From contig JACPGH010000005.1 in assembly GCA_016182485.1 (NCBI GenBank), positions 64,305-128,304 of the forward strand: 64,000 nucleotides of DNA. The letters are read 5' to 3'. Numbering within the stretch: the first letter of the stretch is position 1; each line of letters opens with the position of its first letter. This document shows, piece by piece, positions 2,196 to 31,482 of the stretch. Source of the stretch: Candidatus Kaiserbacteria bacterium (GTDB lineage: Bacteria > Patescibacteriota > Minisyncoccia > Phycocordibacterales > Phycocordibacteraceae). The notes beneath the pieces were generated by a model, which was not told where the DNA came from, searched no databases, and saw only the letters and a list, made by a program, of their open reading frames with translations. The position numbers were made by a program, and so were the translations under genes.

Positions 2196-3134
2196 ATGAA
2201 TGCGGAGACGGCGAAGCGGCAGTTTCTGGAATATATCGAGATCGAGCGCGGGCGCGCCGTGAAAACCGTCGAGAATTATGACCGGTATCTCTCGCGCTTT
2301 TTTACGCAGATGAAAATAGGGGACGTACGCGATATCGATGAAAAGAGCGTGCGCGAATTTCGCCTGTGGCTCAACCGTCAACCCTCTTTCGCTAAAGCTA
2401 CGGAGGGCGCAGCCGGGACATTAAAAAAGCGGACCCAAAATTATTACATGATCGCGCTCCGCGCGTTCCTGAAGTTTCTGCGCAAGCGGGATATCGCGGC
2501 GATTTCTCCGGAAAAGATAGAGCTTGCTAAGCTGCCGGAGCGTCAACTCGATTTAATTACGCCGGCAGAGCTCGAGCGCCTCATGCGGGCGCCTTCTGAC
2601 GCGCTGGAAAAGGAAAAGGACCCGGACAAAATAACCCGATGCGCGCGCGACCGGGCAATTTTAGAGCTCCTCTTCTCTACCGGCCTGCGCGTCTCGGAGC
2701 TCTGCTCGCTCGACAGCGACCTGGATCTCTCGCGCGATGAGTTCTCCGTGCGGGGCAAAGGCGAGAAAGTGCGGGTCGTCTTTCTCTCCCCTGCCGCCAA
2801 AGAGGCCATTCGCGCTTATTTAAAGCTGCGCAAAGATATGGAAGAGGCGCTCTTCGTGGACGGCCGCCCCGAGAAACCGCACCGCATCACTCCGCGCGAC
2901 GTGCAAAGGCATTTGAAAAAATATGTCGTCCGGGCAGGCATTACGAATATTGTGACGCCCCACACCCTGCGTCACGCATTCGCCACCGATCTCTTGCGCA
3001 ATGGCGCCGACATCCGCTCGGTGCAACAGCTCCTCGGCCACGCTTCCATCAACACGACGCAGATCTACACGCATGTCACCGACGCGCATTTGCGCGAGAT
3101 ACATAAAAAATATCATTCGAAAAATCGCAAGTAA
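2196..3134 (+). CDS. tyrosine recombinase XerC/XerD family
   Basis: N-terminal SAM-like domain plus C-terminal HTLRHAFAT...LLGHASINTTQIYTHV catalytic region with R..HxxR..Y residues. Confidence 0.85.
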   Translation: MNAETAKRQFLEYIEIERGRAVKTVENYDRYLSRFFTQMKIGDVRDIDEKSVREFRLWLNRQPSFAKATEGAAGTLKKRTQNYYMIALRAFLKFLRKRDIAAISPEKIELAKLPERQLDLITPAELERLMRAPSDALEKEKDPDKITRCARDRAILELLFSTGLRVSELCSLDSDLDLSRDEFSVRGKGEKVRVVFLSPAAKEAIRAYLKLRKDMEEALFVDGRPEKPHRITPRDVQRHLKKYVVRAGITNIVTPHTLRHAFATDLLRNGADIRSVQQLLGHASINTTQIYTHVTDAHLREIHKKYHSKNRK

Positions 3135-3212
3135 CCATATCCAAGATAATCGACGGTCGTCCATTATTTTGGATATTCCTTTGTTTTAGTATTTTGCAAA
3201 ATACTAAAATGC

Positions 3213-3869
3213 TCACTTTTCTCGTACCAAGAAGTACTCCGCCTTTGGCGATTTTTCGTACATTTCAAGCAGACCCTTGATATCGCCGATCTGCGACTCG
3301 TGTTGCTTGAGCGCTTCGAGCTTTTTCTGCCAAGTGCCAGTGACGTTGGAAACGTATTTTATGTCCGATTTTTTGTACCCGGGCGGTACATAAATAAAAT
3401 ATTTCCATTTCCGGCGCTTGGGCGTTTCGAGCCTGCAAAATTGCAGAAGCTTTTTCACGAATGGTAGTCGCTCGAATACGTAGTTCGAGACCATCGCCAT
3501 CGTAATATGGTCGATGTGGCCCGAGACGCCGCGCGGCTCGTAGGTGAGAAGAGTATCCGGTTTTATTTTCTTTAAAATGCGTTCGATCTTCCGCGCAATG
3601 TCGTGGTATAGGTTATTCGAGAGCGCCCCGTCCTTAAATCCTAAGAAAAATACCTCTTTTACGCCGAGGATTTTCGCCGCTCGCTTAAGTTCCAGGGCGC
3701 GGATATTCCCGAGCGCTTTTGCGCCCCTCTTTCCCCTATATTCGCCCGCCTCCCCCTTCGTCGCGCATATAAGATAGACGTCGCGCTCCTGCGCGAACTT
3801 CGCGATAGTCCCGCCTGGCCCGAAGGCCTCGTCATCCGGATGCGCGAATATGCAAACCAATGGCTTCAT
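3213..3869 (-). CDS. PIG-L/LmbE family deacetylase
   Basis: MKPLVCIFAHPDDEAFGPGGT motif. The track ORF extends upstream, but the start at M98 (3869) fits the family. Confidence 0.7.
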   Translation of the reverse strand: MKPLVCIFAHPDDEAFGPGGTIAKFAQERDVYLICATKGEAGEYRGKRGAKALGNIRALELKRAAKILGVKEVFFLGFKDGALSNNLYHDIARKIERILKKIKPDTLLTYEPRGVSGHIDHITMAMVSNYVFERLPFVKKLLQFCRLETPKRRKWKYFIYVPPGYKKSDIKYVSNVTGTWQKKLEALKQHESQIGDIKGLLEMYEKSPKAEYFLVREK

Positions 3870-3910: not shown

Positions 3911-4705
3911 ATGAAACTCGCGTCGTGGAATGTGAACGGCCTGCGGTCGCTTGCGCCGCAGCAAAATCTTTTTGCGAAGCAGACGCCGAATTACTGGGAA
4001 ATTTTCCTTCAAGCAGTAAGGCCTGACATCTTCTGTTTGCAAGAGGTGAAAGCGAGCCCGGAACAAATTCCGGAAGCGATGCGCTCCCCTGCCGGATACT
4101 CCTCATTTTTCTCCGCTTGCCGCACGCGCAAGGGCTATAGCGGCGTCGCGCTTTATACAAAGGTTAAACCTTTGTCAGTTGTATATGATCTCGGCATCCC
4201 GGAATTTGACGAGGAGGGCCGCTTTATCGGCGCCGAATACGAAGATTTCTGGCTCCTGAATGTCTATTTCCCGAACGGCGGCCGCGGCCCAGAACGGCTC
4301 GACTATAAATTGCGTTTCTATGACGCCTTTCTTCTCTTTGCCGAAAAATTGCGTAAAAATAAACCGGTCATATTTTGCGGAGACATAAATACAGCCCACG
4401 AAGAGATCGATTTGGCGCGGCCGAAAGAAAATGAACGCAATACAGGCTTTTTGCCCGAAGAGCGCGCGTGGCTCGACGAGGTTGTGGCCGCCGGTTATGT
4501 GGACTCGTTCCGCCATTTCCATCCGCATACGCGGGATGCCTACTCCTTCTGGGATTCCTACACGTATGCCCGCGAACGCAATGTCGGCTGGCGCATCGAC
4601 TACTTCTTCGTCGCGCGCGAATTTATGCCGCGCGTCCAGAAGGCCGAAATCCACTCCCAAATCTTCGGCTCCGACCACTGCCCTGTTTCTATTGTTCTTT
4701 CGTAA
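3911..4705 (+). CDS. xth: exodeoxyribonuclease III (AP endonuclease)
   Basis: SWNVNGLR...CLQEVK...GSDHCPV motifs of the ExoIII/APE family. Confidence 0.85.
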   Translation: MKLASWNVNGLRSLAPQQNLFAKQTPNYWEIFLQAVRPDIFCLQEVKASPEQIPEAMRSPAGYSSFFSACRTRKGYSGVALYTKVKPLSVVYDLGIPEFDEEGRFIGAEYEDFWLLNVYFPNGGRGPERLDYKLRFYDAFLLFAEKLRKNKPVIFCGDINTAHEEIDLARPKENERNTGFLPEERAWLDEVVAAGYVDSFRHFHPHTRDAYSFWDSYTYARERNVGWRIDYFFVAREFMPRVQKAEIHSQIFGSDHCPVSIVLS

Positions 4706-4749
4706 AATCGCTCTTCTGAACCTCGAATTCGTTTCGAAACTCGGAACAG

Positions 4750-4788
4750 CGGGCGAAGTGATGGGCACGACGTGTCCATCACTTCGCC
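4750..4788. repeat. long perfect hairpin (partial repeat A plus palindrome B) between convergent xth and the XRE gene
   Basis: gggcgaagtgatgggcacgacgtgtccatcacttcgccc, about a 19 bp stem. Likely a bidirectional terminator or repeat element. Confidence 0.55.
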
Positions 4789-4799
4789 CAGTCAGCACT

Positions 4800-5192
4800 T
4801 CAGGAAGCATCGAAAGCCTTGATAGTCCTGATCACCCTCTCTCGAGCTTCCGCAGACAACTTCAACAAGAGATTGATCACCTCGGCTTCATTCACGCTTC
4901 TCGTCAGGGAAGGTCTGGATATACCTCTACTCTGGTTCAGACGATGTTCTTTCTCCCCGTTTAGCAGCATAACCTCGAGCTCCGCACTCTGTTTCGGGGA
5001 GAGTCGGTAGCCCCGTGTCAGGGCCGCAAGCTTTCTGTGCGTGGGGCGGTATTTCCCAGACTCTATTTGCGAGAGGCTCACGCGGTTCCGGATGCCGCCT
5101 TTTACTGAAGACATCCGTTCCAGCACCTCAGCTTGGGTCATCTGGTTTGCTTCTCGGATCTGTCTCAGGTGCGTGCCGATCTCATTCATCAA
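4800..5192 (-). CDS. XRE-family HTH transcriptional regulator
   Basis: HTH_XRE-like N-terminus (LRQIREANQMTQAEVLERM...LSQIESGK). Confidence 0.6.
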   Translation of the reverse strand: MMNEIGTHLRQIREANQMTQAEVLERMSSVKGGIRNRVSLSQIESGKYRPTHRKLAALTRGYRLSPKQSAELEVMLLNGEKEHRLNQSRGISRPSLTRSVNEAEVINLLLKLSAEARERVIRTIKAFDAS

Positions 5193-5246
5193 GATGCCTT
5201 CCTCCTCTACTCACAAGGTTCGCAAGGTCCCTTCCCGGTCTGTAAA

Positions 5247-5272
5247 GTGATGGACACGACGTGGTCCATCAC
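5247..5272. promoter_or_regulatory. palindrome B copy (GTGATGGACACGACGTGGTCCATCAC) ~55 bp upstream of the XRE gene start; candidate operator
   Basis: Inverted 11-mer half-sites. The same palindrome occurs at 4762-4786 and 31441-31464. Confidence 0.4.
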
Positions 5273-5418
5273 TCCTCAAAGTAACTAACAAATATATATG
5301 TATATATTTCCGACATCGTTCTCCTATCAGATATACATATAAAGATTAAATATAGCGTGCTATGCACTAACAAAAATATACTGTTGTCAGAATTTCCGAC
5401 ATATGATACTTTGACGAC

Positions 5419-6189
5419 ATGCTGGAGGAAGGACTGGCCAAAGCTGGCTTAAATGCCAAAGAAGCGGCGATTTATCTCGCCGCGCTTGAGTCGGGCCCCT
5501 CGAGCATTCTGCAACTCAGCCGGAAGACGGGTATCAAGCGGCCGACGATATACGAAATGATGCCCTCATTGCTCCGCTCCGGCGTCATAGCGCAAACAGC
5601 CAAGGGGAAGCGCAAGCAATTCGTGGCTGAGCCGCCCGAGAAGCTCTTTGAGGCCAAAAGGCAGGAGCTGAATTCCCTTCGCGAGCTCCTCCCTACTCTC
5701 GAAGCGTTCCGCAATGCGTCTATCGAAAAGCCGGATATTAAGTGGTTTCAGGGTATTGAAAACATCCAAGAAATTTTGTGGGACATGGTGAGCAACACGA
5801 GCGTGAAAGAGCAGCTGCTCGCAATTGAGGGCCAGTTCAACTCTATCTACCAAAAGCTTGGGGACGAATTCTTCCAGAAACTCTTGAGGGAGAAAGCCCG
5901 CCGTAATCTCGAATCGCTCACAATTTCGACCATGAGTCCGCAGGAGCTGGAGAAAACGGTCCGGGACGCTCCCTGGAGCGTCGGCCACCAGATCGAAGTC
6001 CGCCTTATCGAAGATGCGAATAATGACTTCAAACTCAATTTCTTCATATATCAGGATAAAGTAACGATAATTTCTGCCTTGCAGGAGGTAGCGCTAGTGA
6101 TTGAAAACAAGATCCTGTTCAACAGCCTCAAACTTCTCTTTATGACCCTCTGGAAAACAGCGCGAGAAACTCCCTATCGAATCTCGTAA
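5419..6189 (+). CDS. TrmB-like HTH transcriptional regulator (paralog 1)
   Basis: N-terminal wHTH (AAIYLAALESGPSSILQLSRKTGIKRPTIYEMM). Conserved C-terminal LFMTLWKTARE tail shared with five other ORFs here. Confidence 0.6.
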   Translation: MLEEGLAKAGLNAKEAAIYLAALESGPSSILQLSRKTGIKRPTIYEMMPSLLRSGVIAQTAKGKRKQFVAEPPEKLFEAKRQELNSLRELLPTLEAFRNASIEKPDIKWFQGIENIQEILWDMVSNTSVKEQLLAIEGQFNSIYQKLGDEFFQKLLREKARRNLESLTISTMSPQELEKTVRDAPWSVGHQIEVRLIEDANNDFKLNFFIYQDKVTIISALQEVALVIENKILFNSLKLLFMTLWKTARETPYRIS

Positions 6190-6196
6190 TTCGCGG

Positions 6197-6237
6197 CCCG
6201 ACCACTGCCCCGTTTCGATTGCTCTCTCATAAAACAA
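6197..6237. repeat. imperfect direct repeat of the xth 3' end (matches 4670-4710)
   Basis: ccgaccactgccccgtttcgattgctctctcataaaa vs ccgaccactgccctgtttctattgttctttcgtaaaa, about 36/41 identical. Confidence 0.6.
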
Positions 6238-6406
6238 AACCGCCGGATGTTATCCGACGGTTCAATGCGCAGAGCAGGGTTACAACTGTGGGGTAAGGCT
6301 CCCCTAAATACTCACCTGCTTTCTGGGCGCTGCGCCGCCCCGGTGACGCTCCATATGCCTCAAGCTCTCCGCCTTATTATTGAGGCACACCCGCCACCCG
6401 GCTGAA

Positions 6407-6625
6407 TCAGATCTTTTCGACAATCACAGTCGTCACGTAATAGACGTGACGCGCGATTCCTTGCATCATGCTGCGCTCGGTGCGATAGTCCCACGTTCCG
6501 TGGAGCGCCAAGCTCGTAGTCGCAGACACAATCCGCCAGCTGCTGCCAAGCTCCCGAAGACGCTTCTCAAGCTCTTCCTCAGGCGAATCGTTACGCGAAC
6601 CCACGATGATTACTTTCTGTTCCAT
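6407..6625 (-). CDS. hypothetical small protein
   Basis: ORF only (MEQKVIIVGSRND...). No confident family. Confidence 0.3.
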   Translation of the reverse strand: MEQKVIIVGSRNDSPEEELEKRLRELGSSWRIVSATTSLALHGTWDYRTERSMMQGIARHVYYVTTVIVEKI

Positions 6626-6638
6626 GTATGCCTCCTTT

Positions 6639-6800
6639 CTATTCGTAATCTTCATCGTGAGGAACGGGATCCGCTATCCTTTGGGAGGCAAATGGAAATT
6701 CCTTGCACTTTCGGCAATACAGATCTTTACAGTCATACTGGTTAATTGCGAAAGTGAGGCCACCGCCGCAATGTGGGCAACAAGCATCTCCTCGTCCCAT
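6639..6800 (-). CDS. hypothetical zinc-ribbon protein (CxxC...CxxC)
   Basis: MGRGDACCPHCGG...CRKCKE. The track ORF's N-terminal extension overlaps the repeat A copy, so the internal start is preferred. Confidence 0.3.
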   Translation of the reverse strand: MGRGDACCPHCGGGLTFAINQYDCKDLYCRKCKEFPFASQRIADPVPHDEDYE

Positions 6801-6869
6801 TAGACTCTCCTTATCCTGCCTCCCCTTTCGGATGAGGACTTTCGGCCAAAGAACATGAGCGAACATCTT

Positions 6870-6919
6870 CGCTCTTCTGAAAATCCAATTCGCATCAGAT
6901 TTTCGGAACAGCGGGCGAA
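6870..6919. repeat. repeat A copy (reverse orientation)
   Basis: Exact reverse complement of 21684-21733 (ttcgcccgctgttccgaaaatctgatgcgaattggattttcagaagagcg). Confidence 0.7.
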
Positions 6920-6922
6920 TTC

Positions 6923-7240
6923 TCATTCGCCCTTGCCTCCTTTCTCAAGTAGCGCTCTAACAACCTTGACGACCTCTTCAACCGGGTGGCACTCCAGAAA
7001 GTCGCGATACCCGGCGCTGATGAGTGGACCACGCCCTTTCCCATTGAGTTCGGCATTGACGTCAGAAATGTCGATCCCGATGAGTTGGAAGGCGCGCACC
7101 ACAGCCTCCGCATTCTCATATACGGCTCCGCAGTACTCGATTTCCCCTTTGAAGGAACTGACTGAACATCCCGTGCATCCTTGAACGGCATAGCCGAAGG
7201 CGAGGCGCAGAACAAAGAGTTTCTCCTCGATACTAAACAT
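6923..7240 (-). CDS. hypothetical protein
   Basis: ORF only. Confidence 0.3.
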   Translation of the reverse strand: MFSIEEKLFVLRLAFGYAVQGCTGCSVSSFKGEIEYCGAVYENAEAVVRAFQLIGIDISDVNAELNGKGRGPLISAGYRDFLECHPVEEVVKVVRALLEKGGKGE

Positions 7241-7418
7241 AGTGCCATTCTCCCAGTTCCTGCCTGCCCTTTCGGGTCAGGGCTTATGGGTTCAATGTTC
7301 AACGTCTCTGGCACCACAATAGCAGGCGCAACACCTTTTGTCAATATTGGTTATGACACAATTAAATGTCATTGGTGTTTGCATTACATAGGTATTTTGA
7401 TACGCTGTCATATATCCT

Positions 7419-8192
7419 ATGACAGGCAGATCCGTGACAGAAGAACAGCCATTGATTAACCGCCTTGCGGAATGGGGGCTGACGCGGGCGGAGGCCGAAG
7501 TGTATGTCTATTTGCTCCAGCGGCCGACCGAGAGCGGCGGGTCGAAGATCGCCGTGGGGACCGGCCTACACCGGCAGTATGTCTATATCGCCCTAGAGAA
7601 GCTCCTTGCTGCAGGCCTCGTTGAGGCAATTCCATTCGGCAAGCATAAAAAGTACAGAGCCCGCTCCCCGCTCGAGATCGAGAAGATCACGCGCAAGAGG
7701 AGTGTGGCGGCAAGCGACCTGGTGCACGAATTGAATAAGATAAGCGCCATTCATAGCGAACAGGACTTCGAAGTGCTGCAGGGCGCAAATCAAATCCAGC
7801 AATATGAGATGGACTATGTCTATGGATGTACGGAGGGAGAAGAGGAGCTCATTATCGGCGGGCATTCCAAAGGTTTTTTCGACCTAATGGGCGATGGTCT
7901 AGAGGAATATATAGAGGAGAAAGAGCGTAAAGGCATAAAAGTACAATATATTGGCAGCTTGAGCGAGAAGCCGCTCTACGAGCTAAACATTAGCTCGTAC
8001 GGAAATCAGAATTATCGCTATTTAGAGGGGATGCACGAAGGAGTAACGCACTTGGTGATCCGGAAAGATTCAGTTTCCTTTTGGAGTTTTCTCACTCCCC
8101 CGCTGGTCTATGTGATCAAGTCTGCGACTGTGGCAGATGACTACCGGAAATTTTTCCAGCTGCTTTGGGATATCGCCGGCAAACAGGGCTAA
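7419..8192 (+). CDS. TrmB-like HTH transcriptional regulator (paralog 2)
   Basis: wHTH (AEVYVYLLQRPTESGGSKIAVGTGLHRQYVYIALEKL) plus family C-terminal tail (FFQLLWDIAGKQG). Confidence 0.6.
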   Translation: MTGRSVTEEQPLINRLAEWGLTRAEAEVYVYLLQRPTESGGSKIAVGTGLHRQYVYIALEKLLAAGLVEAIPFGKHKKYRARSPLEIEKITRKRSVAASDLVHELNKISAIHSEQDFEVLQGANQIQQYEMDYVYGCTEGEEELIIGGHSKGFFDLMGDGLEEYIEEKERKGIKVQYIGSLSEKPLYELNISSYGNQNYRYLEGMHEGVTHLVIRKDSVSFWSFLTPPLVYVIKSATVADDYRKFFQLLWDIAGKQG

Positions 8193-8249
8193 AGGACATC
8201 CTTCAACCCGCTCGGGATGAGTTTTCCACAGGGATGTCCTTTACAATGT

Positions 8250-8560
8250 CTTTTATCATTCTAAACTTGGCTAAGGAGGAGGCGGTGTGCGGCTAGGCTC
8301 AGGACCGGCTCCATTGGATGTTCTTTAGGAGTTCTTTTAACATCAGACGCTCTGTGAGTAACCTGCCTGCGCCAGCGGCGATCCGCTAACACTACCGGGC
8401 ACGGGACCCGAACGGAAGCGCAATAGTGCTTTTGACAAAAGCCACCCACCATTTCTCCGACTGAGGCACCATCATTTACGCCCCGCTCCTTTTACGCCGC
8501 AGTCACCCGCTGGGTGGCTTTGTTGTTTACTCTGAGCTTTAGTGAAGGAAGCGAACTGGC
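8250..8560. ncRNA. candidate structured ncRNA (unidentified; weak SRP-RNA-like GGAAGC motif)
   Basis: About 350 nt with no credible ORF between a terminator-like hairpin at 8196-8252 and the palindromic repeats. Hairpins include gccacccacc...gggtggc. No family confirmed. Confidence 0.2.
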
Positions 8561-8610: not shown

Positions 8611-8721
8611 TTGTGAAGGTCTGACCTTCACAACTTAATGAAAGCAAATTACATTCGATATATTCGCATGATTTACAAGATATATCGGACTGTGAAGGTC
8701 TGACCTTCACAAGTTAATGAA
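8611..8721. repeat. two direct copies of a 23 bp palindrome, TTGTGAAGGTCTGACCTTCACAA(C/G)TTAATGAA, about 80 bp apart
   Basis: Copies at 8611-8642 and 8690-8721, downstream of cca. Confidence 0.65.
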
Positions 8722-8760: not shown

Positions 8761-10269
8761 TTAGCACACGTGGTGTTTTTCCATTATTTGGCGTACTTCC
8801 TCATTTTCGGCGGCTTCCCGCCTTTTCTTCCCCGCTTCCCCAAGCCTCTTGAGTTCATTCTCGTCCAGCATTAACAGTTCTTCGGTTCTCTTATCTAGAT
8901 AGTCATGCACGTTTCGCGCGGAATCGTCCAAGACTTCTTCGAGCAGTGCATTCAGGACATATCCTATCCTAGGCCCCGGTTTCGCGTGGAACTTCTCCAT
9001 TATCCTGGTGCCATCTGTCTTCAGCATCTTCACAGAGATAGGATCTCGAAGAGCCTGTTCCACCATAGCTTTGTACTTCCTGAATCTAAAAGGCTGTTCC
9101 TTAGGCCGTCCCGTCCCAATCCGGTCGCATATACGGAGGTTAAGCAAGTCCCAAATATTTTCCTGTCCAACATTCGTAACCATTCTGCGTACGGCCGATA
9201 ACGTTATCTGATCAGGATCAGAAAAGAACATGTGCCACCGGACAAGCTTTACTACCTTGTCTATTGTTTCGCGTGGAAAGTGCAGCTCCTCTAGAGCTTT
9301 TTTGGTTACACGTGAACCAACCACGTCGTGTCCATGAAAGGTCCAGTCTTTTTTTTCGTCGGACCATCGGCGGCTCTCGGGCTTCGCTATGTCATGGAAG
9401 AGCCCGGCAATCGTAACGTCGAAGCCGAAGCGCTTATCCGCCCCGTGCTGCATTGTACGGAGATTGTGCTCAAAGACATCGTAGCTATGCGCCTGGTTTT
9501 GCTCGACGCCAATACCTCGCACTAAATCGCCGACTATGAATTCGAGAATGCCGAGCTGGTGGGCGAGCACGAGCGCATTCATCGGCTTCTTTGACTCTAG
9601 AATACGCACAAGCTCATCTCGAATCCTCTCGCGCGAAATTTGGCTTAAATGCTGACTGTTTTGCTTAATGGCAGCGGCCGTGTCGCTCTCTATGCCGAAG
9701 TCGAGCTCAGCCACAAGCCGCACGGCCCGGAGCATTCGCAGGGCGTCCTCATCAAAGCGTTCTCCGGCGTTCCCGACGGCTCGTATTATCTTGTCCTTTA
9801 TGTCCTTTTGACCATCATACGGGTCCACTATTTGTCCTTTATCTGCATCGAGAGCGATGGCATTTATCGTAAAGTCACGCCGGGCAAGGTCTTGGAGAAG
9901 GGAAGTGCCAAATTCGACCTTGTCCGGCCGACGCTTGTCGGAATAGCCGGATTCGGTGCGGTAAGGTGTCACCTCGACTATTGCCAGCCGCTCGTCCTCT
10001 GAACCGGTCTTCACGCCCACCGTGCCGTATTCATTTTCATAAAAAGAATCAGGAAATACGGCCTGGATTTGCTCCGGGGTAGCGTTCGTGGTGAGGTCCC
10101 AGTCCTTCGGCTCGCGGCCGAGGATAAGGTCGCGGACACAGCCGCCCACCAAATACGCTTCAAATCCCTTTTCATGAAGGGAGTTCGATACCCGAGAAAT
10201 CTCTTCCGGGATAGGGAAGCGCATATCCACAATGCTAGCATAGCGTGCTAACTTAGATTCGAGGAACAT
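8761..10269 (-). CDS. cca: CCA-adding enzyme (tRNA nucleotidyltransferase with HD domain)
   Basis: GGCVRDLILGR...DWD head motif plus C-terminal HD domain (LFHDIAKP). The start at MFLESK (10269) is chosen because the upstream ORF extension translates across a tRNA. Confidence 0.8.
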   Translation of the reverse strand: MFLESKLARYASIVDMRFPIPEEISRVSNSLHEKGFEAYLVGGCVRDLILGREPKDWDLTTNATPEQIQAVFPDSFYENEYGTVGVKTGSEDERLAIVEVTPYRTESGYSDKRRPDKVEFGTSLLQDLARRDFTINAIALDADKGQIVDPYDGQKDIKDKIIRAVGNAGERFDEDALRMLRAVRLVAELDFGIESDTAAAIKQNSQHLSQISRERIRDELVRILESKKPMNALVLAHQLGILEFIVGDLVRGIGVEQNQAHSYDVFEHNLRTMQHGADKRFGFDVTIAGLFHDIAKPESRRWSDEKKDWTFHGHDVVGSRVTKKALEELHFPRETIDKVVKLVRWHMFFSDPDQITLSAVRRMVTNVGQENIWDLLNLRICDRIGTGRPKEQPFRFRKYKAMVEQALRDPISVKMLKTDGTRIMEKFHAKPGPRIGYVLNALLEEVLDDSARNVHDYLDKRTEELLMLDENELKRLGEAGKKRREAAENEEVRQIMEKHHVC

Positions 10270-16984: not shown

Positions 16985-17809
16985 TCAGCGTGCCGATTCT
17001 TTATTACCCTCCACCTCTGCAATAATCCCTCGTAAAATCTCGTTCGCATCTATGACGCGCGAATGATCCTGCATGAATTTGAGGAACGAGAGCAGCATCT
17101 TTTGGATTTCAGAATTGCGGATCTCAATAACCAGCTCTTCTCCGAGGGCCATCAGGTAGATGGATTGTTTAAAAATGAAGACCTGGCTGGCATGGTTAAA
17201 ATATTCGCCTTCTACCACACCCACTCTCGTCGTGCGGCCTTCGAAATCCCTCGCCCACGAGACTCCCAATTCTCTCGCCATTCTTTCAAGCTCCCCGTCT
17301 TGGAATATTGACTCGGCAATGATGTTGTTTTTCTTCAGCGCACGATTGAAACGGTTCGTCTCCTGAAGAGAGAACGTTTTATTCCAATTTACAGCCGCAC
17401 TATCGCCAACGAGAGAATAGAATCTCTCATTCTTGTGCGCAAAGAGCAGTTCGCCCAGCACCTTTCGAATCGAGTCCTGGCCGCGATGAATGATGACCGT
17501 GGCATCCGAAAGGCCGTGCACCTCCTCAGTCCCTTCCGGAATCTTTAGAAGCGTCCGCTTAGCCGCATACAGCACCCCCTCGATATCTCGCTCGGGGGCG
17601 AGCCGCCACATTTTCTTGCCGCTCGTAATATGAGACTCAGCCAAACCGCGCTTTTTCAGATTGTAGAGAATCGCGTAGGCCGCCGTGCGAGACACTCTCG
17701 TTGCACGCGCCAATAAAAGAGGCGTATCAACACCACTCTGGAGGGCAGTGAGTATCTTTTCTTCTTTCTTTGAGAGTCCAAGTAGCTTGAGGGTTTCAGA
17801 AGCGGGCAT
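16985..17809 (-). CDS. TrmB-like HTH transcriptional regulator (paralog 4)
   Basis: wHTH (EEKILTALQSGVDTPLLLARATRVSRTAAYAILYNLKKRGL). Divergent from the peptide/radical-SAM operon. Confidence 0.6.
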   Translation of the reverse strand: MPASETLKLLGLSKKEEKILTALQSGVDTPLLLARATRVSRTAAYAILYNLKKRGLAESHITSGKKMWRLAPERDIEGVLYAAKRTLLKIPEGTEEVHGLSDATVIIHRGQDSIRKVLGELLFAHKNERFYSLVGDSAAVNWNKTFSLQETNRFNRALKKNNIIAESIFQDGELERMARELGVSWARDFEGRTTRVGVVEGEYFNHASQVFIFKQSIYLMALGEELVIEIRNSEIQKMLLSFLKFMQDHSRVIDANEILRGIIAEVEGNKESAR

Positions 17810-17991: not shown

Positions 17992-18063
17992 ATGCCGACG
18001 GCCAACTCGGGTTCCGCCGGGAAGAGCCGCAAGGCTCTGCCGGCCAAGCGCCCCTCCAAGTAG
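17992..18063 (+). CDS. 23-aa peptide MPTANSGSAGKSRKALPAKRPSK (candidate precursor peptide 1)
   Basis: SD GGAGGTG 8 nt upstream. Near-identical to the peptide 100 bp downstream. Confidence 0.5.
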   Translation: MPTANSGSAGKSRKALPAKRPSK

Positions 18064-18166: not shown

Positions 18167-18238
18167 ATGGCCACAGCCAACGCCGGTTCCGCTGGCAAGA
18201 GCCGCAAGGCTCTGCCGGCAAGACGCCCCTCCAAGTAG
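18167..18238 (+). CDS. 23-aa peptide MATANAGSAGKSRKALPARRPSK (candidate precursor peptide 2)
   Basis: SD AAAGGAGGTG upstream. The alternative start at 18161 gives MSMATAN.... Confidence 0.5.
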   Translation: MATANAGSAGKSRKALPARRPSK

Positions 18239-18244
18239 GAGACG

Positions 18245-18275
18245 GGCGGAAGCGGGGACTTGTCCCCGCTTCTTT
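18245..18275 (+). terminator. hairpin plus T-tract (partial terminator/attenuator) between the peptide genes and the radical-SAM gene
   Basis: ggaagcggggacttgtccccgcttctttgtt. Confidence 0.4.
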
Positions 18276-18297
18276 GTTATCAACCCAGACTGCTACT

Positions 18298-19656
18298 ATG
18301 GAGAGGACAATGGAAGGCCAACCGAAGCAGAAACTCGAGAGCCAAGAAGCGCTGTCAGAACTGACGTTGCAGACCGAGCTGCGCGAGAGCGGGGAGTACG
18401 CCTACGCCCCGTCCGCATCGCACTGGTACTGGAACATGGTGGACGGCAAGCCGTTCAGCGACACGCAGAAAGCGGAGCTTCTCCTGGCGCAAAAAGACGA
18501 GCTTCCGTATCTGGTCTCCGCCTTGTTGGAGAGGACCTGCAATCTCCGCTGCGCGCACTGCATCTACCAAGACGAGCAGAGCAGCAGGAAGGCGTCGGAG
18601 GAAGGCCAGCTAGCGGCGGTCGTCGAGCACATAATCCGTACGATGCCGCAAGGCCCCGCAGAGCAGAGGGCCAAGTTCATGTCCGCCGGCAGAATCCTGC
18701 GGCCGTGGCACCTCGACATCTTCAAGAAACTTCGCGAGAGCCGGCCGGACGTGCAGCTTGGCGTCATCGACAACGGCACGTACACGAAACTGTTGCGCAC
18801 ATGGCCAGAAGGATTGCAACTGGACTGGCTCGACATCTCTGTGGACGGCACCGAGGCGAACCATGACAAGCAGAGAGGGGAGTCCTCATACGCCGCGGCT
18901 ATGGAGGGACTGCGGCATGCGCGCGAAATCACTCGCTCTCGTGAAGAGGGCGGATATGTGGCATCGCTGCTGACGCTCACCAACATCAACGCGGGCGACG
19001 TCTTGCAAGTAGCCAATACTCTTCTCAATGAGAAGGCCGGCGAACCGCTGGCAGACAAGCTGAACCTCACGACCATGGGGCCGACCAACGCGATCAATGC
19101 GCGCCTCGAGATAAGTCAGCTCGACTTCGCGCAGGCGTGGGACGGACTCAAAGAGGCGTGTGCGAAATACAACACGCCAGGCAACGAGCGTGTCTCGCTC
19201 GGCCTGTACCGCGTCGAGGACGTGGAGAAGCTCGCCGCAGTGGTCGGAGAAGGGAAATTCTTAGAGTCCTTTCCAGCCGACGAGGACAAGGCGCGCGAGC
19301 GGGTCACGTTCCGAGGCAACTTCGTCGAAACGCATGTCGACGGCGTGCCCGTCTCCTACCTGCCCATCTCGATCTGGCCGCCTGAAGAATTCTTGATCGA
19401 TGCGGATGGGGCATACCGCCTCGCCTACGAAGGCCAGTTCACGCTCGAGGAGCTGCGTGCGGGCTCACAAGAAAGCTGGGACGGCCACAGCGCGCGCGAC
19501 TACACCGTCACGCAGCTCACGCCAGAGACGGACTTCCGCGCTGTGTACGAGCAAGCCGTGGATATCTACTGGCAACGCTTCGGCCACGCAAAGCTCGATC
19601 AGGAATTCGCCGCGTTCGCGCGAATACGCGAAAAGGCCCGACAAGAGGGCAGGTAA
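18298..19656 (+). CDS. radical SAM enzyme (CX3CX2C; no obvious SPASM cysteines)
   Basis: LLERTCNLRCAHCIYQ radical-SAM cluster motif at about residue 85. Only one other Cys, so a SPASM/twitch domain is unlikely. Start could be 18298 or 18310 (SD GGAGAGG). Confidence 0.7.
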   Translation: MERTMEGQPKQKLESQEALSELTLQTELRESGEYAYAPSASHWYWNMVDGKPFSDTQKAELLLAQKDELPYLVSALLERTCNLRCAHCIYQDEQSSRKASEEGQLAAVVEHIIRTMPQGPAEQRAKFMSAGRILRPWHLDIFKKLRESRPDVQLGVIDNGTYTKLLRTWPEGLQLDWLDISVDGTEANHDKQRGESSYAAAMEGLRHAREITRSREEGGYVASLLTLTNINAGDVLQVANTLLNEKAGEPLADKLNLTTMGPTNAINARLEISQLDFAQAWDGLKEACAKYNTPGNERVSLGLYRVEDVEKLAAVVGEGKFLESFPADEDKARERVTFRGNFVETHVDGVPVSYLPISIWPPEEFLIDADGAYRLAYEGQFTLEELRAGSQESWDGHSARDYTVTQLTPETDFRAVYEQAVDIYWQRFGHAKLDQEFAAFARIREKARQEGR

Positions 19657-20201: not shown

Positions 20202-20984
20202 TTAAGCATCGAGCGTCATCCACTGGAGCGCGAAGATGCTTTTCAGCGTTCGGGCGATGCCGGCGCTCTCAATAATGAGCCCGAGCTGGTCCTGAAAGGA
20301 CATGATGCCGATTCTGTCCGGCCCGTAGAGATTGACCTCGACCAAGAGAGGGAATTGTTCCGGGTCGATGAGTTTGGTGGTGCGTAAGGACTTGTTATCT
20401 ATGCCCTTATAGTCCCGGATTATCGGCAGATCCGGCGCGATCGCTTCTACCCAGATCTTTTTCTCCAGCCGCTTCGGCACATAGTATTCATCGAGAAATT
20501 TCTGATCGAATTTATGGATCATTTCTTCCGAAACCCACGTCTGCATCTTTTGATCCGGAAAGCGGAGCGTGTCTTTGTACACGTCTTTAATTCCTTCGAT
20601 GCCTTCGAAATAGCGAATGCGCGGCTTTTTCTTCAGCGTGTTCGTGATGGAGAGCAATTCAGGCAAAATCTTCTCGATCGAAGATTTCTTTTCGTCGAGC
20701 AATTCGACTATTTTCCGCGGGTCCTCCGCTATGTATATGATTTTCTTTTGTCTTTTGGCCGTACTCACGAGTCCGGAACGCTTGAGCGATTCCACGGTGT
20801 CATAAAGGGTCGTCCGTTTCAGCTTAGACTTCTTCACGAGCTGGCCCATGTGAGCCTCGCCAAGCTCGAGGAGAGCCAGGTAGGCCGCAGCCTCCTTGTC
20901 GTCGAGCCCGGTGCCTTTCAAATCAGAAATCGTCATGGTTTTGGTATAAGTGTCGTCCTTTAGGTCAACTTTTACATCATACAC
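20202..20984 (-). CDS. TrmB-like HTH transcriptional regulator (paralog 5)
   Basis: wHTH (KEAAAYLALLELGEAHMGQLVKKSKLKRTTLYDTVESLKRSGL) plus the family C-terminus. Start may be the internal M (20936). Confidence 0.6.
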   Translation of the reverse strand: MYDVKVDLKDDTYTKTMTISDLKGTGLDDKEAAAYLALLELGEAHMGQLVKKSKLKRTTLYDTVESLKRSGLVSTAKRQKKIIYIAEDPRKIVELLDEKKSSIEKILPELLSITNTLKKKPRIRYFEGIEGIKDVYKDTLRFPDQKMQTWVSEEMIHKFDQKFLDEYYVPKRLEKKIWVEAIAPDLPIIRDYKGIDNKSLRTTKLIDPEQFPLLVEVNLYGPDRIGIMSFQDQLGLIIESAGIARTLKSIFALQWMTLDA

Positions 20985-21667: not shown

Positions 21668-21733
21668 GGGCGAAGTGCAATGCTTCGCCCGCTGTTCCGA
21701 AAATCTGATGCGAATTGGATTTTCAGAAGAGCG
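21668..21733. repeat. hairpin (gggcgaagtgcaatgcttcgccc) plus repeat A copy (21684-21733)
   Basis: 50 bp identical to the reverse complement of 6870-6919. About 150 bp upstream of the NYN gene. Confidence 0.7.
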
Positions 21734-21881
21734 GATGGGGTTATCTACAGCGGCAAGACTTCATGTTGACCTCGTGTGTGGATAGGTTATACTGGCTATG
21801 AAAATCACCGGCGCCTCCCGCAAGGGATTGTGCCGGTTTTTCGTTCTCCAATAACGAGAATCACATGCTACCATCATTTGC

Positions 21882-22557: not shown

Positions 22558-22607
22558 CTTCGCCCGCTGTTCTGAGAACCGATCGAGTTCGGGATTCAGA
22601 AGAGCGG
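22558..22607. repeat. diverged repeat A copy immediately after the NYN gene stop
   Basis: cttcgcccgctgttctgagaaccgatcgagttcgggattcagaagagcgg. Same orientation as 21684-21733. Confidence 0.6.
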
Positions 22608-22824
22608 AACACGAAACAGAAGAGCCGCGACAGGGTCGCGGCTCTTGAAGCAAGCATCGCCTGGCATGCCGGCGGGATGAGGGGATTCCTAGTCGACCCC
22701 GGAGAAGAACTGCCAGATGGGCGCACAGCGCGCCCGCCAGGTATAGAGGTGAATGACCGCGTCAACCAACGCTGCGCATGCGACGAGTGCGAGCAGAGCA
22801 TGGAGCCTCGTCATAGCCGCCTAC

Positions 22825-31056: not shown

Positions 31057-31338
31057 TCAGTTTCCGGAATGAGCGGTTGAAAATATGCCGAGATCCTTGA
31101 AAAGTTCTTTGGTGCTGGTGTACTTCTTACCGTTCTTGATAGCATCGGCGACCTCGCGGTCCCATTTTGCCCGCAATGCGGCAGGATTCTTGGTGGGCAT
31201 AAAGGGCAGGCCTTGCTCCGTCACCACCTGATTCAAGAAAAGCTTCACGCCACTAGATAAGTCCAGCCCAACTCCTTCGAGCGCCTTCTTGGCGGCCTTC
31301 TTGGTTTTTTCTTCAATTCTGACATTCAACGTAGTCAT
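31057..31338 (-). CDS. DinJ/RelB-family antitoxin
   Basis: LNVRIEEKTKKAAKKALEGVGLDLSSGVKLFL..V..QGLPF matches the DinJ pattern. Confidence 0.65.
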   Translation of the reverse strand: MTTLNVRIEEKTKKAAKKALEGVGLDLSSGVKLFLNQVVTEQGLPFMPTKNPAALRAKWDREVADAIKNGKKYTSTKELFKDLGIFSTAHSGN

Positions 31339-31440
31339 GCGCCTATGATATACAATGTGCGCTCATCGTCAATACACACTGAAACGCGACGCTACTTTGA
31401 GCGTCCACGCGATCGTGCGGACATGCACCAGGCTGCCACA

Positions 31441-31464
31441 GTGATGGACACGTCGTGTCCATCA
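31441..31464. promoter_or_regulatory. palindrome B copy (GTGATGGACACGTCGTGTCCATCA) ~100 bp upstream of dinJ; candidate operator
   Basis: Perfect inverted repeat shared with the XRE locus. Confidence 0.4.
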
Positions 31465-31482
31465 AACCCACCTCCATTAAAG

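What the first reader, a model, noticed from the sequence alone, without database searches (positions are those of the whole stretch)
4670..6237. 1.5 kb insertion (XRE regulator + TrmB-like paralog) bracketed by a ~40 bp direct repeat of the xth 3' end
The last ~40 bp of xth, including its stop (4670-4710: ccgaccactgccctgtttctattgttctttcgtaaaa), recur as an imperfect direct repeat at 6197-6237 (about 36/41 identical). The second copy lies immediately after the TrmB-like gene's stop.

Between the two copies lie the long A/B hairpin, the XRE gene on the minus strand, palindrome B, an AT-rich divergent promoter region, and the TrmB-like gene 5419-6189.

A duplicated target gene end flanking foreign-looking cargo is a signature of site-specific integration into the 3' end of xth, or of a duplication-mediated insertion.

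The segment beyond the repeat (6.2-7.4 kb) also carries small minus-strand ORFs of unknown function and another repeat-A copy. This is consistent with a small accessory islet.
Basis: seen in the sequence. Interest (0 to 1): 0.7.

Follow-up and report, generated by a model that had tools for sequence, protein, structure and literature searches.

The report
Leftover xth gene end marks insertion
A 37-base leftover copy of the end of a DNA-repair gene (xth) shows where a 1.5 kb pair of regulator genes was recombined into a gene-swapping hotspot of an uncultured groundwater bacterium; it is a real but fairly ordinary scar of horizontal gene transfer, not an active mobile element.

Summary
The repeat is real: 4671-4707 and 6198-6234 match at 32 of 37 bases (not about 36/41). 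It occurs only twice in the window and cannot be chance. Copy 1 is the true 3' end of an intact exodeoxyribonuclease III gene. Copy 2 reads in frame as PDHCPVSIALS-stop, a relic of an xth end; 4 of its 6 codon differences are synonymous.

About 50 related Paceibacteria keep the order NYN-rpsO-xer-xth-cca, with a median of about 500 bp between xth and cca. Here that gap is 4 kb. A promoter motif that abuts the xth stop in relatives sits at 8190-8267, after the second TrmB-like gene. The foreign stretch is therefore 4706-8189, and the bracketed 1.5 kb (XRE + TrmB-like) is its newest layer.

No integrase lies in the insert, and Xer belongs to the conserved backbone. None of 80 relatives carries such a relic, and all 13 independent population contigs carry the insert.

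Best reading (about 0.5): incoming DNA carrying its own xth end recombined inside xth and joined illegitimately 37 bases before the resident stop, a 3'-end displacement. Rivals are integrase-type integration as in e14/icd (about 0.25) and in-situ duplication (about 0.15). Interest is low to moderate.

The parts
2196..3134 (+). Xer-type tyrosine recombinase. It is a backbone gene and not part of the insert.
   Evidence: Phage_integrase plus SAM-like domains. NCBIfam XerA 236 bits against a cut-off of 220. It is syntenic with NYN-rpsO upstream and xth downstream in most of the 80 relatives. No paralogue occurs in the window.
3911..4705 (+). xth, exodeoxyribonuclease III, intact
   Evidence: PF03372 at 5.7e-30. 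TIGR00633 302.7 bits against a cut-off of 99. The C-terminus ...GSDHCPVSIVLS fits the family consensus.
4671..4707 (+). Repeat copy 1: the functional last 11 codons and stop of xth, plus 2 nt
4708..4790 (+). Element A copy 1, with palindrome B nested in the loop of its second hairpin (4751-4789). This is the left end of the incoming segment. It lies between the convergent xth and XRE genes.
   Evidence: Fold of -49.9 kcal/mol, z = -8.4. Covariance model score 59 bits. Palindrome B located.
4800..5189 (-). XRE-family HTH regulator (129 aa), an orphan
   Evidence: HTH_31 at 3.6e-10. No homologue other than itself among 5.8e9 proteins in the word-indexed search. Weak PHROG hits to repressors.
5245..5273 (.). 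Palindrome B copy 2, about 55-85 nt upstream of the XRE start; probably the XRE operator (inference)
   Evidence: A third copy at 31439-31467 lies upstream of a RelB/DinJ-type gene.
5276..5418 (.). AT-rich divergent control region. It contains the motifs TTTCCGACAT (5307-5316) and TGTCAGAATTTCCGACA (5385-5401).
   Evidence: Read. A similar motif (ATATATGTCAATATATCCGACAT) lies upstream of TrmB1 homologues in L087 and L088 (blastn hit to L088).
5419..6189 (+). TrmB-like regulator 1 (256 aa)
   Evidence: PF01978 at 2.3e-11 over residues 6-74. PDB 3qph TrmB matches the N-terminal region only. It is 26% identical to the second TrmB-like gene. Homologues of 45-52% identity sit at unrelated loci, with no XRE match to their neighbouring genes where checked.
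6198..6234 (+). Repeat copy 2: a displaced relic of an xth 3' end. In frame, 6197-6232 reads PDHCPVSIALS-stop.
   Evidence: Best outside matches are the xth ends of relatives L012 (85% over 34 nt) and L006.
6237..6263 (-). Intrinsic terminator of the minus-strand sm72 operon (12-bp stem plus T tail). Its tail overlaps the TAAAACAAAA that follows the relic.
6407..6800 (-). Two small genes: sm72 (6407-6625) and a zinc-ribbon gene of 53 aa (6639-6800). This is an older part of the islet.
   Evidence: ORFs with RBS. No Pfam, PHROG or PADLOC hit. sm72 homologues of 72-76% identity lie next to A elements in six metagenome loci.
6866..6935 (+). Element A copy 2, between p105 and the zinc-ribbon gene
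   Evidence: 66 bits
6923..7240 (-). p105, a small gene of unknown function
7419..8192 (+). TrmB-like regulator 2 (257 aa), the last gene of the islet
   Evidence: PF01978 at 4.3e-11. Orthologues of 67-69% identity occur in L107, L126 and L133. In L107 the full cca match is only 54% identical and in L133 a partial match is 49%; L126 holds no cca.
8190..8267 (+). Ancestral flank. The motif TAAAGGACA...TGTCCTTTACAATGTC, with a sigma-70-like promoter (TTTACA-16-TAAACT), directly follows the xth stop in relatives.
8435..8530 (+). Conserved block with a terminator (8501-8519), part of an unknown transcript of about 250 nt shared with relatives. It marks the backbone before cca.
   Evidence: blastn 76-79% to L006, L008 and L012. 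Terminator. No Rfam match.
8761..10269 (-). CCA-adding enzyme gene, a backbone gene
   Evidence: PolyA_pol + HD + tRNA_NucTran2_2. Syntenic in 50 relatives.

Best explanation
The second copy (6198-6234) is a displaced relic of the 3' end of an xth gene. A segment of about 1.5 kb entered the chromosome already carrying its own xth 3' end (now 4671-4705, which completes the working gene). The segment is a self-contained regulatory module: an XRE-type gene with its A-type hairpin element and palindromic operator, and a divergent TrmB-like gene with its own control region.

Most likely the incoming DNA was a chromosomal fragment from a related Paceibacteria lineage in which this module lay directly downstream of xth. 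Its left end recombined homologously inside the conserved xth gene. Its right end, 8 nt past the TrmB-like stop, was joined illegitimately to the resident chromosome 37 nt before the resident xth stop. This is homology-facilitated illegitimate recombination, the process behind 3'-end or C-terminal displacement in Rhs and T6SS loci.

The resident last 11 codons, stop, and the shared terminator with the convergent sm72 operon were pushed 1.5 kb downstream and are now untranslated. The event added a layer to an older accessory islet (6235-8189) in a spot between xth and cca that varies among Paceibacteria.

Shown here:
- the insertion relative to the conserved backbone
- the relic's identity as an xth end
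- the absence of a recombinase in the insert
- the hotspot

Inferred:
- the two-ended recombination mechanism
- which copy is resident and which is incoming
- DNA uptake as the entry route
For: - The repeat is real and unique.
- Copy 2 keeps the reading frame, the family consensus DHCPVSIxLS and the stop. Four of six differences are synonymous third-position changes (P about 0.01-0.03 against unconstrained decay), so most divergence arose while the sequence was translated as xth.
- In 50 relatives the xth-cca gap has a median of 505 bp, against 4056 bp here. The motif that abuts the xth stop in L006, L009, L011, L012, L013 and L023 sits here at 8190-8267, and a second conserved block at 8435-8530.
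- The gap is a hotspot: 12 of 50 relatives hold over 1.2 kb of unrelated cargo there, including TA pairs, Fic, and TrmB-like genes in L037, L050 and L064 by translation and L038 by tblastn. In metagenome loci selected only for element A, cca lies in the same short locus as TrmB-like genes and A in 5 of 41.
- TrmB-like 2 has orthologues of 67-69% identity in L107, L126 and L133. In L107 the full cca match is only 54% identical and in L133 a partial match is 49%, which points to horizontal movement of such modules.
- There is no recombinase in 4706-8189 and no second one in the window.
- Cargo GC and GC3 equal those of xth and cca, as expected for a related donor.
- TrmB-like 1 homologues are ordinary chromosomal genes at other loci.
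- The 13-nt identical block at the start of the repeat is simply the GAC-CAC-TGC-CC catalytic motif, conserved in nearly all relatives, so it needs no crossover-core explanation.
- Published precedent: 3'-end displacement by homology-facilitated illegitimate recombination leaves shifted 3' ends and orphan genes in T6SS and Rhs loci (PMC5361080).
Against: - No donor and no empty-site genome exists. The nearest xth among 5.8e9 proteins is 76% identical, so neither crossover point can be seen.
- Microhomology at the right joint is only suggestive: TTCG, then a 1-nt indel, before the repeat.
- The synonymous bias is equally produced by an old in-situ duplication in which only the working copy stayed under selection (discussion).
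- The topology, direct repeats of a gene end exactly bracketing the cargo, is also what integrase-mediated or Campbell-type integration gives.
- Illegitimate joins of this kind are rare events in the organisms where they have been measured (PMC5361080).
- Natural competence of this lineage is assumed from general knowledge of CPR bacteria and was not tested here.
Confidence: 0.5

Rival explanations
1. Site-specific (integrase-type) integration. A small circular element, or a larger integrative element or prophage since reduced by internal deletion, carried an attP that mimics the xth 3' end. It integrated into attB within the last 37 nt of xth, as e14 and phage 21 do in icd. That leaves attL as the new gene end and attR as the relic. 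The recombinase is lost or acts in trans.
For: - Direct repeats of the target gene's 3' end bracket the cargo exactly; one copy completes the gene and the other is a relic. This is the e14/icd-icdC layout (PMC13626634).
- The longest identical block (13 nt) lies at the upstream edge of the repeat.
- An XRE repressor-like gene with a divergent partner gene sits next to the left repeat, loosely like a phage immunity region, with weak PHROG repressor hits.
Against: - No integrase, excisionase, replication or phage structural gene lies in the 1.5 kb or in the whole 3.5 kb islet.
- No second recombinase occurs in the window.
- The identical block is the universally conserved DHCP codons.
- No xth relic is found in 80 related loci.
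- The viral contig collection gave no hit for the TrmB-like gene or for the att-like codon pattern.
- All 13 population contigs are occupied.
- TrmB-like 1 relatives are ordinary chromosomal genes elsewhere.
Confidence: 0.25
2. In-situ origin. The module was already downstream of xth. A local duplication of the xth end followed by deletion, or a repair or replication-slippage event, copied the last 37 nt to the far side of the module. The copies then diverged, the working one only at synonymous sites.
For: - A mixture of synonymous change in the working copy and random change in the relic also predicts about 4 synonymous and 2 non-synonymous differences (reasoning).
- Cargo composition is indistinguishable from the flanks.
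- No donor is known.
Against: - It needs at least two rare events.
- It does not explain why the relic is followed by a proper terminator shared with the convergent sm72 operon, which is the natural end of an earlier xth.
- The stop codon and full reading frame are retained in a supposedly neutral relic with 16% divergence.
- The locus is demonstrably a site of repeated foreign gene gain.
Confidence: 0.15
3. Xer-mediated insertion (IMEX-like). The integrase-less module uses the conserved neighbouring Xer recombinase and a dif-like site at the end of xth.
For: - Xer lies 0.8 kb away.
- The module has no recombinase of its own.
- In single-recombinase Xer systems (XerS, XerH) dif lies next to the xer gene (own knowledge).
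Against: - The 37-mer shows no dyad symmetry above shuffled controls, although the test is weak.
- Xer-xth adjacency is ancestral and occurs in genomes without any insert.
- No relic occurs in 80 relatives.
Confidence: 0.04
4. Chance similarity, a shared terminator motif, or an assembly chimera.
For: None beyond the shortness of the repeat.
Against: - The expected number of chance matches is about 8e-10.
- Only two copies exist in 64 kb.
- The relic matches the xth ends of other genomes.
- Identical structure appears in independent assemblies from many runs.
Confidence: 0.01

Closest known systems
3'-end (C-terminal) displacement by homology-facilitated illegitimate recombination, as proposed for Rhs loci and Vibrio cholerae T6SS effector-immunity arrays (PMC5361080; de Vries & Wackernagel 2002 and Prudhomme et al. 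2002, cited there)
   Same: A conserved upstream gene acts as the anchor. The incoming module brings a new 3' end. The old 3' end is shifted downstream and survives as an orphan fragment. No recombinase is involved, and the locus varies among relatives.
   Different: - The anchor here is a housekeeping repair gene whose two ends encode almost the same peptide, so nothing functional was swapped in xth itself.
- The cargo is a regulator pair, not a toxin-immunity pair.
- There is only one relic, not an array.
- The donor and recipient are unknown.
Cryptic prophage e14 (and phage 21) in the icd gene of E. coli K-12, with the icdC pseudogene at the far end (PMC13626634; Hill et al. 1989, cited there)
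   Same: The functional gene end is supplied by the inserted DNA. A diverged, mostly synonymous duplicate of the gene's 3' end remains as a relic on the other side.
   Different: - e14 is 15 kb, encodes its own integrase and excises on SOS induction.
- Here the bracketed DNA is 1.5 kb with no recombinase.
- The duplicated stretch is 37 nt, much shorter than the C-terminal icd fragment duplicated as icdC.
- No excision or empty site is seen.
Accessory-gene hotspots between conserved core genes, filled by homologous recombination in the flanks (own knowledge of bacterial pangenome structure)
   Same: Conserved xth and cca flanks surround variable cargo in 12 of 50 relatives. Similar TrmB-like modules sit beside cca in distant lineages.
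   Different: Simple flank-to-flank replacement leaves no relic. The relic shows that at least one join here was not homologous.
IMEX elements that exploit XerCD at dif (CTX phage, gonococcal genetic island; own knowledge)
   Same: Integrase-less DNA bracketed by direct repeats, near a Xer gene.
   Different: The repeat is a coding gene end without recognisable dif architecture. Xer proximity is ancestral synteny.

Membership tests
Exodeoxyribonuclease III (xth), for the gene and the relic | Full-length match to the xth equivalog above the curated cut-off; catalytic C-terminal SDHxP motif | tested here: met
   TIGR00633 302.7 bits against a cut-off of 99.05. GSDHCP is present in the gene. The relic reads PDHCPVSIALS-stop and fits the consensus of 120 homologues.
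Integrase-mediated integration into a gene's 3' end (e14/icd type) | Direct repeats made of the target gene's 3' end; one completes the gene and the other is a relic | tested here: met
Integrase-mediated integration into a gene's 3' end (e14/icd type) | Tyrosine or serine recombinase encoded within the bracketed element | tested here: not met
   Only an HTH_31 protein and a TrmB-like protein lie between the repeats. There are no recombinase hits in the PHROG or PADLOC scans and no Xer paralogue in the window.
Integrase-mediated integration into a gene's 3' end (e14/icd type) | Identical crossover core shared by both repeats and not explained otherwise | tested here: inconclusive
   A 13-nt identical block CCGACCACTGCCC exists, but it coincides with DHCP codons conserved in nearly all relatives.
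Integrase-mediated integration into a gene's 3' end (e14/icd type) | Occupied and empty sites, or excised circles, in related genomes or populations | tested here: not met
   13 of 13 contigs from at least 10 runs are occupied. There is no relic in 80 relatives. No match to the copy-2 codon pattern was found in metagenome or viral contigs. Raw reads were not available.
Homology-facilitated illegitimate recombination / 3'-end displacement | Conserved anchor gene intact with an incoming 3' end; the resident 3' end displaced downstream of the new module | tested here: met
Homology-facilitated illegitimate recombination / 3'-end displacement | Locus variable among relatives; the incoming module has chromosomal relatives elsewhere | tested here: met
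Homology-facilitated illegitimate recombination / 3'-end displacement | Short microhomology at the illegitimate joint; identifiable donor and recipient alleles | tested here: inconclusive
   The TTCG shared just upstream of both copies is offset by 1 nt. No donor or recipient genome exists in the databases.
IMEX (Xer-exploiting element) | Flanked by dif-like sites with two inverted arms around a 6-8 bp spacer, integrated at the chromosomal dif | tested here: inconclusive
   No dyad above shuffles in either copy, but the test also scores E. coli dif weakly. The dif site of this lineage is unknown.
TrmB sugar-sensing regulators, for the two cargo regulators | N-terminal TrmB winged-helix domain plus the C-terminal sugar-binding domain (equivalog-level match) | tested here: not met
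   PF01978 is met for the N-terminus. The NCBIfam TrmB and TrmBL1 equivalogs score 27 bits against cut-offs of 600-650. PDB 3qph aligns to residues 4-91 only. These are therefore TrmB-like and not TrmB proper.
Integron cassette / attC, considered for element A | R'' (RYYYAAC) and R' (GTTRRRY) core sites at the ends of the imperfect palindrome; integron integrase nearby | tested here: not met
   The conserved arms are CGCTCTTCTGA and TCRGAASAGCG, and neither fits the core sites. The only recombinase is the backbone Xer.

The most novel reading that the evidence does not exclude
The TrmB-like regulator, its divergent small-gene operon and the A hairpin element together form a CPR-specific mobile cassette type that lacks its own recombinase. 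Such cassettes would be placed preferentially in the xth-cca interval by a host function, such as the adjacent conserved Xer-type recombinase or an activity that recognises the invariant CGCTCTTCTGA/TCRGAAGAGCG arms. The xth relic would then be the att scar of one such event.
Probability: 0.07. Interest if true: 0.65.

Novelty: new member of a known kind. Interest (0 to 1): 0.3.

Why it matters
Candidate Phyla Radiation bacteria are uncultured, have tiny genomes, and how they gain genes is poorly documented. This locus gives a clean, base-resolved footprint of one gain event. A regulator module was added next to a housekeeping gene without breaking it, in a spot that many related lineages also use for accessory genes.

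If the displacement reading is right, it is direct sequence evidence for transformation-type recombination with one illegitimate end in this phylum. If the integrase reading is right, it would define the xth 3' end as an attachment site. Either way the biological consequence is modest: two extra transcription factors and an inert 37-nt relic.

Tried and rejected
- Empty-site or donor genome. None was found. The nearest xth is 76% identical, XRE has no homologue, TrmB-like 1 has only six, and a codon-degenerate search for DHCPVSIALS-stop found nothing in metagenome contigs or viral contigs.
- Recurrent attachment site. I scanned 80 related loci for a second copy of their own xth end, allowing up to 10 mismatches in 36. 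None was found except a true paralogue in L043.
- Conserved XRE + TrmB module. Rejected: TrmB-like 1 homologues have other neighbours.
- Phage or defence origin. There are only weak HTH-level hits and no viral contig.
- Compositional anomaly. There is none.
- Known RNA family for element A or for the conserved transcript at 8.2-8.5 kb. No Rfam match even at E up to 1.
- attC or integron reading of element A. The core sites do not fit.
- Replication origin at the DnaA-box-like motif. GC skew gives no support.
- Gene-orientation statistics for element A using a crude ORF caller were too noisy to use. Manual inspection shows both orientations relative to neighbouring genes.
- Metagenome loci with TrmB-like 2 orthologues (L107, L126, L133) were checked as possible empty sites. 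They lack xth and the AGGACA motif, so they are not.
Full report
**Observation.** The repeat is in the sequence. Positions 4671-4707 (CCGACCACTGCCCTGTTTCTATTGTTCTTTCGTAAAA) and 6198-6234 (CCGACCACTGCCCCGTTTCGATTGCTCTCTCATAAAA) are 32/37 identical without gaps, 1527 bp apart. A degenerate 26-mer from the repeat matches only these two places in the 64 kb window, with none expected in shuffles. The chance expectation for such a match anywhere in the window is about 8e-10. Contigs assembled independently from at least ten sequencing runs of the same population match the window exactly across this region; the only differences are three indels totalling 24 nt in the Xer/PIG-L spacer upstream. An assembly chimera is therefore excluded.

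**What the two copies are.**
- Copy 1 is the end of a complete exodeoxyribonuclease III gene (3911-4705; PF03372; TIGR00633 302.7 bits against a cut-off of 99).
- In the same register, copy 2 reads PDHCPVSIALS-stop, against SDHCPVSIVLS-stop for the gene.
- The C-termini of the closest relatives and of 120 database homologues follow the consensus GSDHCP(V/I/L)SIxL(S)-stop. Copy 2 is therefore a relic of an xth 3' end and not a terminator or other generic motif.
- Outside the window, the best matches of 6190-6410 are the xth ends of relatives L012 and L006.
- Of the six nucleotide differences over the 12 codons, four are synonymous third-position changes, and the frame and stop are kept. Random decay of one copy gives that pattern with P of about 0.01-0.03.
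- Most of the divergence therefore arose while the sequence was being translated. That fits two alleles from different lineages. It also fits an old local duplication in which only the working copy stayed under selection, so this test does not separate those two.

**Is it an insertion?** Yes.
- The organism is a Paceibacteria/Kaiserbacteria-type member of the Patescibacteria.
- Related genomes share the order NYN-domain gene, rpsO, xer, xth and, convergent, the CCA-adding enzyme gene.
- In 50 relatives that hold both xth and cca, the distance between them has a median of 505 bp. In the window it is 4056 bp.
- In the nearest relatives the xth stop codon is part of a motif, TAAAGGACA ... TGTCCTTTAC-N2-TGTC, that contains a sigma-70-like promoter.
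- In the window that motif lies at 8190-8267, fused to the stop codon of the second TrmB-like gene. A second block at 8435-8530, which includes a terminator, is 76-79% identical to the corresponding block of L006, L008 and L012.
- The backbone therefore resumes at 8190. Everything from 4706 to 8189 is lineage-specific: XRE, TrmB-like 1, the xth relic, sm72, a zinc-ribbon gene, p105 and TrmB-like 2.
- The islet is about 3.5 kb, not 1.5 kb. The repeat-bracketed segment is one layer of it.

**The locus is a hotspot.**
- Twelve of the 50 relatives hold over 1.2 kb of unrelated cargo between xth and cca. The cargo includes toxin-antitoxin pairs, a Fic protein, methyltransferases and, in four of them, TrmB-like regulators.
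- The Xer-xth spacer also varies, from 18 bp to 2.5 kb. The PIG-L gene that fills it here was not detected in any of the related loci whose hits were inspected.
- In metagenome loci that I collected only because they contain hairpin element A, cca lies in the same short locus as TrmB-like genes and A in 5 of 41. By my rough estimate, one gene in a genome of about a thousand would turn up about 0.2 times in 41 such windows.
- TrmB-like 2 has orthologues of 67-69% identity in L107, L126 and L133. In L107 the full cca match is only 54% identical and in L133 a partial match is 49%; L126 holds no cca. Such modules therefore move between lineages.

**Anatomy of the bracketed segment.**
- Directly after the xth stop (TAA plus AA) comes element A (4708-4790). 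It has a hairpin with invariant arms CGCTCTTCTGA / TCGGAACAGCG around a variable inner stem, then a GC hairpin whose loop here carries the 25-nt palindrome B.
- XRE (4800-5189, minus strand) converges on xth.
- Palindrome B recurs 55-85 nt upstream of the XRE start (5245-5273), and once more at 31439-31467 upstream of a RelB/DinJ-type gene. I infer that it is the XRE operator.
- The AT-rich spacer carries TTTCCGACAT and TGTCAGAATTTCCGACA next to the TrmB-like 1 start. Similar motifs precede TrmB-like 1 homologues in L087 and L088.
- TrmB-like 1 ends at 6189, and the relic begins 8 nt later.
- The relic is followed at 6237-6263 by a strong minus-strand terminator (12-bp stem, T tail) that ends the convergent sm72 operon. 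This is what the natural end of an earlier xth, sharing a terminator with a convergent operon, would look like.
- The segment is thus a self-contained regulatory module and not a mobile element. It has no recombinase, replication, transfer or phage gene, and the window has no recombinase other than Xer.
- Its GC and GC3 (0.51-0.54 and 0.64-0.65) equal those of xth and cca.

**Xer.** The gene at 2196-3134 scores above the NCBIfam XerA cut-off. It sits in the same place in relatives that have no insert. Its proximity is ancestral synteny and gives no evidence that it made this insertion. The 37-mer shows no dyad symmetry above shuffled controls, although that test is weak.

**Mechanism.** The inserted DNA must have arrived with its own xth end. 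An insertion 37 nt before the stop would otherwise remove the catalytic DH residues. Two processes give that result.

1. Homologous pairing of a related chromosomal fragment inside xth, with an illegitimate join at its far end. This is homology-facilitated illegitimate recombination. It is the process proposed for the shifted 3' ends and orphan genes of T6SS and Rhs loci (PMC5361080).
2. Integrase-mediated integration of an element whose attP mimics the gene end, as with e14 in icd, which leaves the icdC relic (PMC13626634).

I favour the first, at about 0.5, for these reasons:
- No recombinase is present.
- The cargo is an ordinary chromosomal regulator module of a kind found at other loci.
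- The interval is a multi-lineage hotspot flanked by conserved genes.
- The only identical block in the repeat is the universally conserved DHCP codons.
- No relative shows a second relic.
- No viral or plasmid-like counterpart exists.

The second keeps about 0.25, because the topology is exactly that of att sites and an internal deletion could have removed an integrase. An in-situ duplication keeps about 0.15, and Xer/IMEX about 0.04. Nothing in the public data can settle this. The nearest xth is 76% identical, XRE is an orphan, and the copy-2 allele is not in the metagenome collection. All 13 population contigs carry the insert, so it is fixed in the sampled population.

**Element A.**
- The window has four copies: 4705-4755, 6866-6917, 21686-21737 and 22561-22610. 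A covariance model finds no more.
- A pattern search found 41 metagenome loci with the same invariant arms. The inner stem differs in sequence but always pairs, with 6-12 of 27 sequences changed on both sides at four inner pairs. L086 has a compensated change in the outer stem.
- It is absent from Rfam and from viral contigs.
- In the window, each of three TrmB-like genes has an A-bearing operon beside it: XRE-A; p105-A-znr-sm72; and response-regulator-like-A-NYN-A.
- TrmB-like genes occur in 13 and sm72 homologues in 6 of the 41 loci.
- A does not fit integron attC core sites. Its function is unknown.
- For the finding, A matters because it shows that 4708 onwards belongs to the incoming XRE unit and not to xth.

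**Verdict.** This is a real, well-defined scar of gene gain next to xth, inside a larger accessory islet. It is best read as a 3'-end displacement and has no sign of current mobility. It is a new example of a known kind of event, in a phylum where such footprints are rarely documented. Interest is low to moderate.

Noticed in passing
window 4705-4755, 6866-6917, 21686-21737 (-), 22561-22610 (-); L086 4902-4956; L087 876-925; L046; L097-L137: Element A is a widespread, unannotated structured intergenic element of CPR-type genomes.
- It has invariant arms CGCTCTTCTGA / TCRGAASAGCG, an inner stem that varies but always pairs, and then a variable GC hairpin.
- It was found in 41 metagenome loci and has no Rfam match and no viral-contig match.
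- It is often near TrmB-like genes, sm72-like genes and zinc-ribbon small genes.
- The arms contain inverted GCTCTTC (the SapI/EarI-type sequence).
   Followed up: partly
window 8190-8530 and the xth-cca spacers of L006, L008, L009, L011, L012, L013: A conserved promoter (TGTCCTTTACA...TAnnnT) drives a transcript of about 250 nt that ends at a conserved terminator. Shared blocks include GTTCTTT, CCTGCC..GCGGCG.ATCCGC and ACGCCCC.GCTCC. No ORF is evident and there is no Rfam hit, so this may be an undescribed small RNA of Paceibacteria. The hairpin just upstream carries a perfect DnaA-box sequence (TTATCCACA) in relatives. CACGTG palindromes (GTTCCACGTGGAAC) lie near the cca end. GC skew gives no sign of an origin.
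   Followed up: partly
window 17993-18063 and 18167-18237, with 18274-19656 and 16985-17809 (-): Two tandem 23-codon ORFs with strong ribosome-binding sites (MPTANSGSAGKSRKALPAKRPSK and MATANAGSAGKSRKALPARRPSK; an 82-nt direct repeat) sit directly upstream of a radical SAM protein (CxxxCxxC; PF04055 at threshold). They lie beside a divergent TrmB-like gene. This looks like a precursor-peptide pair with a maturase (RiPP-like).
   Followed up: partly
window 4756-4784, 5245-5273, 31439-31467: The 23-25 nt palindrome TGATGGACACGnCGTGTCCATCA occurs three times: nested in an A hairpin downstream of XRE, upstream of XRE, and about 100 nt upstream of a RelB/DinJ-type antitoxin gene (31057-31338, minus strand). 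This may be an XRE regulon linking the insert to a toxin-antitoxin locus 26 kb away.
   Followed up: partly
window 3213-3869 (-): A PIG-L/LmbE-type deacetylase gene fills the Xer-xth spacer. No hit to it appeared in any related locus whose results were inspected. The spacer ranges from 18 bp to 2.5 kb in relatives, so it is a second variable spot on the other side of xth.
   Followed up: partly
window 3135-3212 versus L001-L004: The Xer/PIG-L spacer is 24 nt longer in the Logan assemblies than in the window, because of small tandem duplications of TTTTGGA and TGTTTTAGTATTTTGCA. This is either population indel variation or an assembler difference.
   Followed up: no
L008 about 8925-8950: In relative L008 the AGGACA motif lies 190 nt downstream of its xth stop and is preceded by CCCTCTCATAA. 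That resembles the xth ends of L012 and of copy 2 (CTCTCATAA). It may be a very short xth-end relic from a separate small insertion.
   Followed up: no
window 6814-6841 and 7258-7285: A 28-nt direct repeat (TCCTGCCTSCCCTTTCGGRTSAGG) forms a small hairpin in the 5' leaders of the minus-strand zinc-ribbon gene and p105, just upstream of their ribosome-binding sites.
   Followed up: no
window 8612-8642 and 8691-8721: Two copies of TGTGAAGGTCTGACCTTCACAASTTAATGAA, each a hairpin, lie 79 nt apart between the conserved transcript and the cca stop. They gave only chance-level microRNA hits in Rfam.
   Followed up: no
window 5419-6189, 7419-8192, 16985-17809 (-), 20202-20984 (-): Four TrmB-like regulators of about 255-275 aa lie in the first 21 kb. 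They are mutually only about 25-29% identical where compared, and each faces a divergent operon of small or accessory genes. The TrmB-like-plus-divergent-operon unit seems to be a repeated building block of this genome's accessory regions.
   Followed up: partly
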